The notes beneath the pieces are model-generated. The model was not told the DNA's origin. It saw only the letters and a list, made by a program, of their open reading frames with translations, and did no database searches. Below are positions 32,617 through 41,199 of a DNA stretch of 64,000 bases, one piece after another. A program made the translations under genes and the position numbers. Numbering within the stretch: the first letter of the stretch is position 1; each line of letters starts with the position of its first letter. The stretch comes from Eledone cirrhosa (lineage: Eukaryota): assembly GCA_964016885.1 (NCBI GenBank), contig OZ024742.1, forward strand, positions 130,820,001 to 130,884,000, read 5' to 3'.

Positions 32617-35600
32617 ATAAATGCTCTGAAATAGCGATATATATGTGAATATAGACATAGAATATTCGAAAATATTCTGTATGTTTATAATAAACATTTT
32701 GAAGACCTAATCGCTATAGAATAGAATACGTCACGTATTACAATTAGATTCTCGATAAAAGCAAGGGAAGTAATCTACGCGTTTCATTCTCGTTAGAAAT
32801 CATCAGGACTACATATCCAGTGCTTTTATCGAGAATGACACAGCTAGAGACTTATAGAATACTTAGCTGTGTACAGGAACTGGTTTGAAAGAGCGGTTGC
32901 CGGTCCGGCAGAAATTAGAAATTGGAATAAATGCTCTGAAATAGCGATATATATGTGAATATAGACATAGAATATTCGAAAATATTCTGTATGTTTATAA
33001 TAAACATTTTGAAGACCTAATCGCTATAGAATAGAATACGTCACGTATTACAATTAGATTCTCGATAAAAGCAAGGGAAGTAATCTACGCGTTTCATTCT
33101 CGTTAGAAATCATCAGGACTACATATCCAGTGCTTTTATCGAGAATGACACAGCTAGAGACTTATAGAATACTTAGCTGTGTACAGGAACTGGTTTGAAA
33201 GAGCGGTTGCCGGTCCGGCAGAAATTAGAAATTGGAATAAATGCTCTGAAATAGCGATATATATGTGAATATAGACATAGAATATTCGAAAATATTCTGT
33301 ATGTTTATAATAAACATTTTGAAGACCTAATCGCTATAGAATAGAATACGTCACGTATTACAATTAGATTCTCGATAAAAGCAAGGGAAGTAATCTACGC
33401 GTTTCATTCTCGTTAGAAATCATCAGGACTACATATCCAGTGCTTTTATCGAGAATGACACAGCTAGAGACTTATAGAATACTTAGCTGTGTACAGGAAC
33501 TGGTTTGAAAGAGCGGTTGCCGGTCCGGCAGAAATTAGAAATTGGAATAAATGCTCTGAAATAGCGATATATATGTGAATATAGACATAGAATATTCGAA
33601 AATATTCTGTATGTTTATAATAAACATTTTGAAGACCTAATCGCTATAGAATAGAATACGTCACGTATTACAATTAGATTCTCGATAAAAGCAAGGGAAG
33701 TAATCTACGCGTTTCATTCTCGTTAGAAATCATCAGGACTACATATCCAGTGCTTTTATCGAGAATGACACAGCTAGAGACTTATAGAATACTTAGCTGT
33801 GTACAGGAACTGGTTTGAAAGAGCGGTTGCCGGTCCGGCAGAAATTAGAAATTGGAATAAATGCTCTGAAATAGCGATATATATGTGAATATAGACATAG
33901 AATATTCGAAAATATTCTGTATGTTTATAATAAACATTTTGAAGACCTAATCGCTATAGAATAGAATACGTCACGTATTACAATTAGATTCTCGATAAAA
34001 GCAAGGGAAGTAATCTACGCGTTTCATTCTCGTTAGAAATCATCAGGACTACATATCCAGTGCTTTTATCGAGAATGACACAGCTAGAGACTTATAGAAT
34101 ACTTAGCTGTGTACAGGAACTGGTTTGAAAGAGCGGTTGCCGGTCCGGCAGAAATTAGAAATTGGAATAAATGCTCTGAAATAGCGATATATATGTGAAT
34201 ATAGACATAGAATATTCGAAAATATTCTGTATGTTTATAATAAACATTTTGAAGACCTAATCGCTATAGAATAGAATACGTCACGTATTACAATTAGATT
34301 CTCGATAAAAGCAAGGGAAGTAATCTACGCGTTTCATTCTCGTTAGAAATCATCAGGACTACATATCCAGTGCTTTTATCGAGAATGACACAGCTAGAGA
34401 CTTATAGAATACTTAGCTGTGTACAGGAACTGGTTTGAAAGAGCGGTTGCCGGTCCGGCAGAAATTAGAAATTGGAATAAATGCTCTGAAATAGCGATAT
34501 ATATGTGAATATAGACATAGAATATTCGAAAATATTCTGTATGTTTATAATAAACATTTTGAAGACCTAATCGCTATAGAATAGAATACGTCACGTATTA
34601 CAATTAGATTCTCGATAAAAGCAAGGGAAGTAATCTACGCGTTTCATTCTCGTTAGAAATCATCAGGACTACATATCCAGTGCTTTTATCGAGAATGACA
34701 CAGCTAGAGACTTATAGAATACTTAGCTGTGTACAGGAACTGGTTTGAAAGAGCGGTTGCCGGTCCGGCAGAAATTAGAAATTGGAATAAATGCTCTGAA
34801 ATAGCGATATATATGTGAATATAGACATAGAATATTCGAAAATATTCTGTATGTTTATAATAAACATTTTGAAGACCTAATCGCTATAGAATAGAATACG
34901 TCACGTATTACAATTAGATTCTCGATAAAAGCAAGGGAAGTAATCTACGCGTTTCATTCTCGTTAGAAATCATCAGGACTACATATCCAGTGCTTTTATC
35001 GAGAATGACACAGCTAGAGACTTATAGAATACTTAGCTGTGTACAGGAACTGGTTTGAAAGAGCGGTTGCCGGTCCGGCAGAAATTAGAAATTGGAATAA
35101 ATGCTCTGAAATAGCGATATATATGTGAATATAGACATAGAATATTCGAAAATATTCTGTATGTTTATAATAAACATTTTGAAGACCTAATCGCTATAGA
35201 ATAGAATACGTCACGTATTACAATTAGATTCTCGATAAAAGCAAGGGAAGTAATCTACGCGTTTCATTCTCGTTAGAAATCATCAGGACTACATATCCAG
35301 TGCTTTTATCGAGAATGACACAGCTAGAGACTTATAGAATACTTAGCTGTGTACAGGAACTGGTTTGAAAGAGCGGTTGCCGGTCCGGCAGAAATTAGAA
35401 ATTGGAATAAATGCTCTGAAATAGCGATATATATGTGAATATAGACATAGAATATTCGAAAATATTCTGTATGTTTATAATAAACATTTTGAAGACCTAA
35501 TCGCTATAGAATAGAATACGTCACGTATTACAATTAGATTCTCGATAAAAGCAAGGGAAGTAATCTACGCGTTTCATTCTCGTTAGAAATCATCAGGACT

Positions 35601-35845
35601 ACATATCCAGTGCTTTTATCGAGAATGACACAGCTAGAGACTTATAGAATACTTAGCTGTGTACAGGAACTGGTTTGAAAGAGCGGTTGCCGGTCCGGCA
35701 GAAATTAGAAATTGGAATAAATGCTCTGAAATAGCGATATATATGTGAATATAGACATAGAATATTCGAAAATATTCTGTATGTTTATAATAAACATTTT
35801 GAAGACCTAATCGCTATAGAATAGAATACGTCACGTATTACAATT
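32617..35845 (-). repeat. 310-bp tandem array, left block (~10.4 units), one hammerhead per unit on the minus strand
   Basis: atgctctgaa recurs at 32621, 32931 ... 35721. The hammerhead reverse complement is at 32770-32812 + 310k (k=0-9). The ORF track has no ORF inside the array. Confidence 0.97.
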
Positions 35846-38800: not shown

Positions 38801-41199
38801 CAGCTAAGTATTCTATAAGTCTCTAGCTGTGTCATTCTCGATAAAAGCACTGGATATGTAGTCCTGATGATTTCTAACGAGAATGAAACGCGTAGATTAC
38901 TTCCCTTGCTTTTATCGAGAATCTAATTGTAATACGTGACGTATTCTACTCTATAGCGATTAGGTCTTCAAAATGTTTATTATAAACATACAGAATATTT
39001 TCGAATATTCTATGTCTATATTCACATATATATCGCTATTTCAGAGCATTTATTCCAATTTCTAATTTCTGCCGGACCGGCAACCGCTCTTTCAAACCAG
39101 TTCCTGTACACAGCTAAGTATTCTATAAGTCTCTAGCTGTGTCATTCTCGATAAAAGCACTGGATATGTAGTCCTGATGATTTCTAACGAGAATGAAACG
39201 CGTAGATTACTTCCCTTGCTTTTATCGAGAATCTAATTGTAATACGTGACGTATTCTATTCTATAGCGATTAGGTCTTCAAAATGTTTATTATAAACATA
39301 CAGAATATTTTCGAATATTCTATGTCTATATTCACATATATATCGCTATTTCAGAGCATTTATTCCAATTTCTAATTTCTGCCGGACCGGCAACCGCTCT
39401 TTCAAACCAGTTCCTGTACACAGCTAAGTATTCTATAAGTCTCTAGCTGTGTCATTCTCGATAAAAGCACTGGATATGTAGTCCTGATGATTTCTAACGA
39501 GAATGAAACGCGTAGATTACTTCCCTTGCTTTTATCGAGAATCTAATTGTAATACGTGACGTATTCTATTCTATAGCGATTAGGTCTTCAAAATGTTTAT
39601 TATAAACATACAGAATATTTTCGAATATTCTATGTCTATATTCACATATATATCGCTATTTCAGAGCATTTATTCCAATTTCTAATTTCTGCCGGACCGG
39701 CAACCGCTCTTTCAAACCAGTTCCTGTACACAGCTAAGTATTCTATAAGTCTCTAGCTGTGTCATTCTCGATAAAAGCACTGGATATGTAGTCCTGATGA
39801 TTTCTAACGAGAATGAAACGCGTAGATTACTTCCCTTGCTTTTATCGAGAATCTAATTGTAATACGTGACGTATTCTATTCTATAGCGATTAGGTCTTCA
39901 AAATGTTTATTATAAACATACAGAATATTTTCGAATATTCTATGTCTATATTCACATATATATCGCTATTTCAGAGCATTTATTCCAATTTCTAATTTCT
40001 GCCGGACCGGCAACCGCTCTTTCAAACCAGTTCCTGTACACAGCTAAGTATTCTATAAGTCTCTAGCTGTGTCATTCTCGATAAAAGCACTGGATATGTA
40101 GTCCTGATGATTTCTAACGAGAATGAAACGCGTAGATTACTTCCCTTGCTTTTATCGAGAATCTAATTGTAATACGTGACGTATTCTATTCTATAGCGAT
40201 TAGGTCTTCAAAATGTTTATTATAAACATACAGAATATTTTCGAATATTCTATGTCTATATTCACATATATATCGCTATTTCAGAGCATTTATTCCAATT
40301 TCTAATTTCTGCCGGACCGGCAACCGCTCTTTCAAACCAGTTCCTGTACACAGCTAAGTATTCTATAAGTCTCTAGCTGTGTCATTCTCGATAAAAGCAC
40401 TGGATATGTAGTCCTGATGATTTCTAACGAGAATGAAACGCGTAGATTACTTCCCTTGCTTTTATCGAGAATCTAATTGTAATACGTGACGTATTCTATT
40501 CTATAGCGATTAGGTCTTCAAAATGTTTATTATAAACATACAGAATATTTTCGAATATTCTATGTCTATATTCACATATATATCGCTATTTCAGAGCATT
40601 TATTCCAATTTCTAATTTCTGCCGGACCGGCAACCGCTCTTTCAAACCAGTTCCTGTACACAGCTAAGTATTCTATAAGTCTCTAGCTGTGTCATTCTCG
40701 ATAAAAGCACTGGATATGTAGTCCTGATGATTTCTAACGAGAATGAAACGCGTAGATTACTTCCCTTGCTTTTATCGAGAATCTAATTGTAATACGTGAC
40801 GTATTCTATTCTATAGCGATTAGGTCTTCAAAATGTTTATTATAAACATACAGAATATTTTCGAATATTCTATGTCTATATTCACATATATATCGCTATT
40901 TCAGAGCATTTATTCCAATTTCTAATTTCTGCCGGACCGGCAACCGCTCTTTCAAACCAGTTCCTGTACACAGCTAAGTATTCTATAAGTCTCTAGCTGT
41001 GTCATTCTCGATAAAAGCACTGGATATGTAGTCCTGATGATTTCTAACGAGAATGAAACGCGTAGATTACTTCCCTTGCTTTTATCGAGAATCTAATTGT
41101 AATACGTGACGTATTCTATTCTATAGCGATTAGGTCTTCAAAATGTTTATTATAAACATACAGAATATTTCGAATATTCTATGTCTATATTCACATATA
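35843..41199 (+). repeat. 310-bp tandem array, right block (~17.3 units, inverted relative to the left block), one hammerhead per unit on the plus strand
   Basis: Hammerhead at 36068-36110 + 310k (k=0-16; last at 41028-41070). Confidence 0.97.
36068..36110 (+). ncRNA. Minimal type I hammerhead ribozyme (representative of 27 copies)
   Basis: GTAGTC CTGATGA T TTCT aacg AGAA T GAAA CGCG TA GATTAC: stem I of 6 bp, canonical core, palindromic stem III ACGCGT, predicted cleavage after GUA (36104). Confidence 0.85.

What the first reader, a model, noticed from the sequence alone, without database searches (positions are those of the whole stretch)
32617..41199. 8.6-kb non-coding array of 310-bp units, each carrying a hammerhead ribozyme: candidate retrozyme / circular-RNA retroelement
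Seen in sequence: an exact 310-bp period, no internal ORF of 60 aa or more, and 27 copies of GTAGTC-CTGATGA-T-TTCT-aacg-AGAA-T-GAAA-CGCG-TA-GATTAC (10 on minus, 17 on plus). Established: minimal type I hammerheads with a palindromic stem III cleave as dimers. Tandem few-hundred-bp repeats with such ribozymes (newt satellite 2, schistosome SM-alpha, cricket pDo500, metazoan non-LTR retrozymes) are processed to monomeric linear or circular RNAs. Inference: a transcript would self-process after each GUA into 310-nt monomers (for example 36105-36414) that could circularise and be retrotransposed by a PLE RT. I cannot tell whether this family has been described in cephalopods.
Basis: partly seen in the sequence, partly recalled or inferred. 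Interest (0 to 1): 0.92.

Follow-up and report, generated by a model that had tools for sequence, protein, structure and literature searches.

The report
Ribozyme repeats inserted by Penelope machinery
This is one of well over a thousand recent insertions of a small non-coding mobile element that carries a self-cutting RNA motif, and the shape of the insertions suggests that a Penelope-type reverse transcriptase started from both sides of a DNA cut and copied one small RNA, probably a circle, round and round.

Summary
Observation confirmed: 27 hammerhead-bearing 310-bp units, as two head-to-head arms (10.4 units minus, 17.3 plus) inside (TA)n. It is one insertion of a young dispersed family: 16,487 units and at least 1,232 loci in G000.

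Of 52 insertions parsed, 45 are two-armed, all head-to-head. In 42 of 42 complete ones, one outer end lies about 130 nt and the other about 165 nt past the predicted cut site. This is the Penelope 'tail at one end' signature, matching the two internal reverse-transcription starts shown in vitro for PAc; coding Penelope elements of this genome follow the same rule.

Both arms share one haplotype in 31 of 31 loci. Within-locus variants are rare (58) or fixed (46), and intermediate only once. Each insertion therefore descends from a single unit copied many times, best explained by rolling-circle reverse transcription of a ribozyme-made circle.

The class (non-LTR retrozyme) is known. This insertion anatomy was not found in eight literature searches. 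Not shown: cleavage, any RNA, the coding partner. Two loci argue against a purely monomeric template.

The parts
32417..32619 (.). Left (TA)n target tract
   Evidence: TRF period 2, 101.5 copies
32617..35845 (-). Left arm: 10.42 tandem units, ribozyme strand on minus; outer 3' end at unit position 159 (long end), inner 5' end at position 31
   Evidence: 0 differences from the monomer
35843..35845 (.). Inversion point: 3-nt overlap shared by both arms
35843..41202 (+). Right arm: 17.3 tandem units; inner 5' end at position 49, outer 3' end at position 130-139 (short end, blurred by TA homology)
36068..36110 (+). One of 27 type I hammerhead motifs: 6-bp stem I, 4-bp stem II with a U-U pair at 10.1-11.1, self-complementary 6-nt stem III; predicted cut after 36104
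   Evidence: activity not tested
36044..36132 (+). 16-bp basal stem (36044-36059 with 36117-36132) that closes the hammerhead
   Evidence: z = -5.4 against 200 shuffles; a 20-bp stem of different sequence sits at the same place in family C
36105..36414 (+). Predicted monomer, cut site to cut site (unit positions 1-310)
36232..36276 (+). Region holding the two inferred reverse-transcription start sites (unit positions about 128-139 and 157-172); the ~35 nt between them is the PLE-type tail
   Evidence: end distribution over 52 insertions; genome-wide end counts
41195..41766 (.). Right (TA)n target tract
   Evidence: TRF period 2, 286 copies

Best explanation
A young non-autonomous Penelope-dependent retroelement (non-LTR retrozyme). 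Steps: (1) arrays are transcribed [inferred]; (2) paired hammerheads cut out 310-nt monomers, which are ligated into circles [inferred from related retrozymes, not shown here]; (3) a PLE protein supplied in trans binds the RNA, cuts both strands of a (TA)n tract and primes cDNA from both 3' ends, one from the site near +130 and the other from the site near +165 [end geometry shown; enzyme inferred]; (4) each reverse transcriptase runs round the same unit several times, giving two antisense concatemers [single-unit ancestry shown; circle inferred]; (5) the two free cDNA ends are joined through 0-5 nt of microhomology, giving a head-to-head pair of arrays [junctions shown]; (6) some long arms are later reshuffled by unequal exchange [inferred].
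For: Layout: 45 of 52 insertions are two-armed and 45 of 45 are head-to-head. 42 of 42 complete ones (41 independent) have one short and one long end, including 10 of 10 picked without regard to ends. From the listed end coordinates on C1 up to 218 Mb, 53 of 53 head-to-head pairs are long+short (partly the same loci). (TA)4 lies within 12 nt of at least one end in 40 of 42. Coding RT + GIY-YIG elements of this genome also end at two sites past their hammerhead-like motif: +120/+164 and +76/+142. PAc cuts and extends both strands, prefers AT-rich DNA and starts at two internal sites that bound the tail (PMC11167929, main text read). Single-unit ancestry: both arms share one haplotype in 31 of 31 loci, against a 12.6% match rate between loci (32 of 253 pairs); 12 private fixed variants occur in 11 of 51 insertions; the variant spectrum is 58 rare, 46 fixed, 1 intermediate. 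Arms cross the cut site 463 times and no inner end falls at positions 297-12 (0 of 95, expected 8). Junctions overlap by 1-5 nt in 27 of 43 and none is shared between independent loci. Ribozyme kept by selection: family C (about 60% identical) keeps the core, changes both sides of 4 of 6 stem I pairs, and swaps G-C/A-U at 10.1-11.1 among its copies.
Against: No cleavage or RNA data. No coding partner with shared sequence was found among 97 PLE-type loci examined. In L100 and L109 one variant sits in only the second unit of both arms (4 of 38 testable sporadic variants), which a pure monomer circle cannot template. Variants repeated within long arms (window, L080/81, L082, L104) show that arm length is not only RT product. 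Inner ends are enriched at positions 13-62 (31 of 95, expected 15), which fits stalling at the basal stem but also trimmed run-off from a cut 5' end. The U-U pair at 10.1-11.1 may weaken the ribozyme. PAc did not need its hammerhead in vitro (PMC11167929), and only 1 of 9 Xenopus retrozyme dimers cleaved (10.64898/2026.07.22.740005). Within the young family, absence of core variants is not significant by itself, and core columns of family C copies are no more conserved than the rest (0.954 vs 0.949).
Confidence: 0.7

Rival explanations
1. Same PLE machinery, but the usual template is an uncut linear (or oligomeric) tandem transcript from a donor array; the hammerhead is mostly a passenger and monomer bottlenecks are occasional.
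For: L100 and L109 carry one variant in the same unit of both arms. The PAc hammerhead was dispensable in vitro and uncut RNA was its main substrate (PMC11167929).
Against: No junction is shared between independent loci, and only L071 shows a repeated junction. The one foreign junction insert (L082, 272 nt) comes from a multicopy family on C25 with no unit beside it in 5 of 5 loci read. New fixed private variants in 11 of 51 insertions need a single-unit step often.
Confidence: 0.15
2. The template is a linear cut monomer that the telomerase-related RT re-copies by jumping from its 5' end back to its own 3' end; no covalent circle is needed.
For: It gives the same fixed haplotypes. PLE RTs are telomerase-related (PMC8557442 passages). 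The basal stem holds the two ends of a cut monomer together.
Against: Over 463 crossings of the cut site there is no sporadic indel within 3 nt of it, only one substitution seen twice in one locus. Jumps would be expected to leave scars (inference).
Confidence: 0.1
3. DNA-level satellite growth: short PLE-type insertions or pLTRs expanded and homogenised in place.
For: Some long arms show repeated sporadic variants. Local amplification is a proposed route for retrozyme arrays (10.64898/2026.07.22.740005, discussion).
Against: Both inverted arms share a haplotype in 31 of 31 loci, with almost no intermediate frequencies. Outer ends are precise. No insertion continues into a PLE ORF.
Confidence: 0.04
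4. The inverted layout is a fold-back or assembly artefact.
For: Palindromes in AT repeats are hard to assemble; no long reads were laid across this locus.
Against: The arms have different flanks, lengths and end positions. The long+short rule holds in 53 of 53 pairs. The same layout appears in the older family C and in coding PLEs.
Confidence: 0.01

Closest known systems
Metazoan non-LTR retrozymes (coral, mussel, axolotl; Cervera and de la Pena 2020, PMC7229834)
   Same: Non-coding tandem units of 150-450 bp, GC under 45-50%, one type I hammerhead per unit, thousands of copies, PLEs in the same genome. That paper proposes circRNA templates copied by a PLE RT into tandem cDNA. Axolotl HHR_Amex2 also has a U-U pair at the base of stem II.
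   Different: There the RNA was shown and the insertion step was a proposal; here no RNA is shown but the insertion ends are resolved. The word 'inverted' does not occur in that paper's main text.
Non-LTR retrozymes as non-autonomous PLE derivatives (Li, Clavereau, Pollet 2026, bioRxiv 10.64898/2026.07.22.740005)
   Same: Same conclusion on the mobilising machinery.
   Different: Their evidence is co-occurrence and pLTR sequence similarity in vertebrates. Here no pLTR similarity was found; the evidence is end geometry. They do not describe head-to-head arms or fixed ends in the parts read (abstract to discussion).
EN+ Penelope-like elements, e.g. PAc Poseidon of Anolis (Frangieh 2024, PMC11167929; Craig 2021, PMC8557442)
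   Same: Inverted 5'-truncated copy, 30-40-bp tail at one end only, AT-rich or (TA)n targets, two internal RT start sites downstream of the hammerhead.
   Different: No ORF; arms are perfect concatemers of one 310-nt unit. PAc showed no strand difference in start site in vitro, whereas each insertion here uses each site exactly once.
Non-autonomous Chlamys elements such as MRC1 (PMC8557442 passage)
   Same: Non-autonomous PLEs with multicopy head-to-tail insertions.
   Different: Those generally share 3' sequence with an autonomous family, and most Chlamys lack a canonical hammerhead.

Membership tests
Metazoan non-LTR retrozyme | Tandem non-coding units of about 150-450 bp, low GC | tested here: met
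   310 bp, about 34% GC, longest frame 59 aa
Metazoan non-LTR retrozyme | Type I hammerhead with intact core in every unit | tested here: met
   27 of 27 units; stems pair and covary with family C; Rfam models do not hit
Metazoan non-LTR retrozyme | Dispersed, high copy number | tested here: met
   16,487 units, 1,232 short ends, 997 long ends of the commonest type
Metazoan non-LTR retrozyme | No LTR, primer-binding site or polypurine tract | tested here: inconclusive
   No flanking LTR in 52 insertions; PBS and PPT were not searched for
Metazoan non-LTR retrozyme | Self-cleavage of the transcript | not testable with these tools
   needs in vitro transcription
Metazoan non-LTR retrozyme | Linear and circular monomer RNA in tissue | not testable with these tools
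   only contigs of runs of unrecorded kind were available
PLE-mobilised element | Inverted 5'-truncated copy | tested here: met
   45 of 52 insertions
PLE-mobilised element | 30-40-bp tail at one end only | tested here: met
   42 of 42 complete insertions, about 35 nt
PLE-mobilised element | AT-rich or microsatellite target | tested here: met
   40 of 42 with (TA)4 at one end or both; 32 of these were picked by a TA-containing pattern; of the 10 picked otherwise, 9 have it
PLE-mobilised element | Sequence shared with the pLTR of an autonomous PLE | tested here: inconclusive
   none in 97 PLE-type loci from a handful of families; only 150 of 10,596 GIY-YIG candidates were scored
Autonomous PLE | ORF with RT and GIY-YIG | tested here: not met
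   no ORF in the unit; no insertion continues into one
Satellite DNA grown in place | Gradual homogenisation, variants at intermediate frequency | tested here: not met
   58 rare, 46 fixed, 1 intermediate

The most novel reading that the evidence does not exclude
Each insertion records rolling-circle target-primed reverse transcription: an asymmetric PLE dimer on one ribozyme-made 310-nt RNA circle primes both strands of one DNA cut from two fixed sites and rolls round it for many turns (arms up to 19 units). That would be direct genomic evidence that animal retrozyme circles are the transposition intermediates, and would explain the PLE inverted-copy-plus-tail structure by one rule (one subunit per site, one site per strand).
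Probability: 0.5. Interest if true: 0.82.

Novelty: new variant of a known kind. Interest (0 to 1): 0.66.

Why it matters
Two questions are named as open in the papers read: which enzyme and template move animal retrozymes (PMC7229834 discussion; 2026 preprint), and how PLEs form their tandem/inverted structures and tails (PMC8557442). This family gives more than 1,200 near-identical natural products of that reaction, with readable ends, junctions and haplotypes. It supplies a 310-nt substrate with predicted start sites for the existing PAc-type in vitro assay. It is also a sizeable recent load on this genome, about 5 Mb of palindromic arrays (16,487 x 310).

Tried and rejected
Rfam: no hammerhead hit at the gathering score or at E<=10. 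BLAST-type search of G000 with the monomer returned 0 because very common words are skipped; patterns were used instead. Sequencing runs: no RNA holder listed. The four contig sets laid (4 of 6 listed) show a closed 310-nt cycle in X1, X2 and X6, which tandem DNA gives equally, so it says nothing on circles. Partner search: 30 GIY-YIG loci, 16 long-ORF loci, 30 loci of the window's coding PLE-like family, 20 Poseidon-like loci and 1 near-full copy showed no similarity to the unit beyond shuffles or short hammerhead-like pieces of other repeats; full-length copies of the window's family were not read. Read-through from a donor as the source of the L082 insert was rejected. Fold-back priming at the window's near-palindromic junction was rejected as a general rule, because the inner ends of the two arms take many different positions and differ between arms. 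Classical L1 twin priming was rejected: it does not give two fixed outer ends or multi-unit arms (recalled model). Target-site duplications are mostly unreadable in TA: 6 of 38 candidates, all TA-rich; one clear 12-14-nt case in family C locus L153. A genome-wide test of core mutants was not run (too little power). Three look-ups in earlier findings returned nothing. Lunse 2017 was not held and was seen only as a reference title.
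Full report
Observation. The window holds two arrays of a 310-bp unit, 32617-35845 on the minus strand and 35843-41202 on the plus strand, between (TA)n tracts. All 27 hammerhead motifs are as described. The arms differ from the monomer at only 2 substitutions and 1 deletion, and no frame exceeds 59 aa. 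Rfam does not recognise the motif. Read by hand it has the full core, a 6-bp stem I, a 4-bp stem II on a U-U pair and a self-complementary 6-nt stem III that cannot close a normal loop but pairs between two copies (-7.5 kcal/mol). This is the dimer-dependent design described for animal type I hammerheads (PMC4209133, passages). The genome is 3.0 Gb; no call names the organism.

Family size. An invariant 30-mer occurs 16,487 times in G000 and the window's exact hammerhead 4,033 times. A short end running into TA occurs 1,232 times and the commonest long end 997 times. All backwards controls were 0. At about 9.4 units per insertion (479 units in 51) this is roughly 1,700 insertions (estimate). 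Sporadic divergence is 83 variants in 479 units, so the family is very young.

Sample. I parsed the window, the first 10 loci listed for the exact hammerhead, and 40 stretches taken in order from the short-end list, all on contig C1. That gave 52 insertions, of which one (L089b) is a local duplicate. L034 was left out of the sporadic-variant counts because its alignment was poor.

Layout. 45 of 52 insertions are two-armed, and all 45 are head-to-head; 7 have one arm. In 42 of 42 complete two-armed insertions one outer end falls at unit position 128-139 and the other at 157-172, counted from the predicted cut; this includes 10 of 10 chosen without regard to ends. Pairing the listed end coordinates over 218 Mb of C1 gives 53 head-to-head pairs, all long+short (partly the same loci). 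Inner ends are spread over the unit, overlap by 1-5 nt in 27 of 43 junctions, and are never shared between independent loci. Contigs of run X3 show loose ends at the matching places, running into TA at positions 139 and 170.

What made it. An inverted truncated copy and a 30-40-bp tail at one end are PLE hallmarks (PMC8557442, passages and section 12). Purified PAc cuts and extends both strands of AT-rich DNA and starts cDNA at two internal sites that bound the tail (PMC11167929, parts 1-2 of 4; supplements not read). Coding RT + GIY-YIG elements of this genome end at +120 or +164 and at +76 or +142 past their own hammerhead-like motifs, one of each in the two-armed loci seen (L072, L211; probably L207, L122). 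I infer that a PLE protein primed one cDNA from each side of a cut in (TA)n, using each start site once, and that the two cDNA ends were joined by microhomology. The partner was not found: 97 PLE-type loci showed no similarity to the unit, but only 150 of 10,596 GIY-YIG candidates were scored.

What the template was. Both arms carry the same haplotype in 31 of 31 loci with two or more units per arm, while arms of different loci match in 32 of 253 pairs. Twelve variants are fixed in one insertion only (11 of 51). At sites covered six or more times, 58 variants are rare, 46 fixed and 1 intermediate. Gradual homogenisation would leave intermediates, so each insertion traces to one unit copied repeatedly. 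Arms pass the cut site 463 times without sporadic indels there, and 0 of 95 inner ends lie at positions 297-12. A covalent monomer circle read by a rolling RT explains this most simply, and is the cycle proposed for retrozymes (PMC7229834: abstract, parts 2-3 of 6 and discussion read).

Results against. L100 and L109 have a variant in only the second unit of both arms (4 of 38 testable variants); this needs a multimeric template or later conversion. Variants repeated in long arms show later reshuffling. Inner ends are enriched at 13-62 (31 of 95), which may be stalling at the basal stem or trimmed run-off from a cut end. PAc's hammerhead was dispensable in vitro, and 8 of 9 Xenopus dimers did not cleave (10.64898/2026.07.22.740005, parts 1-3 of 5; its supplements were not seen and might list related families or layouts). 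Nothing here shows cleavage or RNA.

Relatives. An older 317-nt family (C; L127-L157, copies about 90% alike, about 60% identical to this unit) and a third form (L042) are collinear with the unit. They keep the core, replace the stems with other pairing sequences, and show the same head-to-head layout and two end classes. The ribozyme fold and the start-site region are thus conserved across families.

Novelty. The class is known. Eight full-text searches found no description of this family, of head-to-head retrozyme arrays with one long and one short end, or of per-insertion haplotypes as evidence for the template. Subscription journals, Repbase and Dfam were not searchable. A giant squid genome paper lists 235 Rfam hammerheads without further analysis (PMC6962438, passages); a retrozyme review added nothing on layout (PMC11722881, passages). 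Verdict: a new variant of a known kind, valuable because its anatomy makes the retrozyme and PLE insertion mechanism testable. Interest 0.66.

Noticed in passing
window 30192-31175 (-): 3' fragment of a very young coding family with a GIY-YIG-like C-terminus and no Pfam hit (clade label Hydra-like recalled from motifs). 79 of 150 listed copies are 100% identical over 190 aa, and open frames reach about 750 aa. A candidate active PLE, but it shares no sequence with the unit.
   Followed up: partly
window 15050-16300 (-) and 53900-55500 (-): Two more PLE-type fragments; the first is head-to-head with a hammerhead-like motif and a longer extension at one end.
   Followed up: partly
L111, L112, L120, L122: Coding PLE family (938-aa frame, RT + GIY-YIG) whose hammerhead-like motif has an altered core (C3U, G8A) and a 65-nt tail, longer than the usual 30-40.
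   Followed up: partly
L036, L039, L050, L083, L089, L113, L120:6510-6705, L121, L126:4630-5335: At least four further short repeat families with hammerhead-like motifs, several head-to-head in (TA)n; this genome holds many such elements.
   Followed up: no
L082:1451-1722: 272-nt foreign insert at the inversion point, 96-98% identical to a multicopy family clustered at 19-24 Mb of contig C25; looks like a captured template.
   Followed up: partly
window 32417-32619, 41195-41766; L031, L032, L040: TA tracts beside insertions often repeat the same interrupted pattern on both sides, as if the target tract had been duplicated or extended during insertion.
   Followed up: no
L071:2028-2205: The inversion junction is duplicated inside one insertion.
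   Followed up: no
window 1411-6780, 22104-25092, 57274-57801: Broken LINE-type elements with RVT_1 and Exo_endo_phos hits.
   Followed up: no
window 10186-10256 (-): Single tRNA-like match, 41.5 bits.
   Followed up: no
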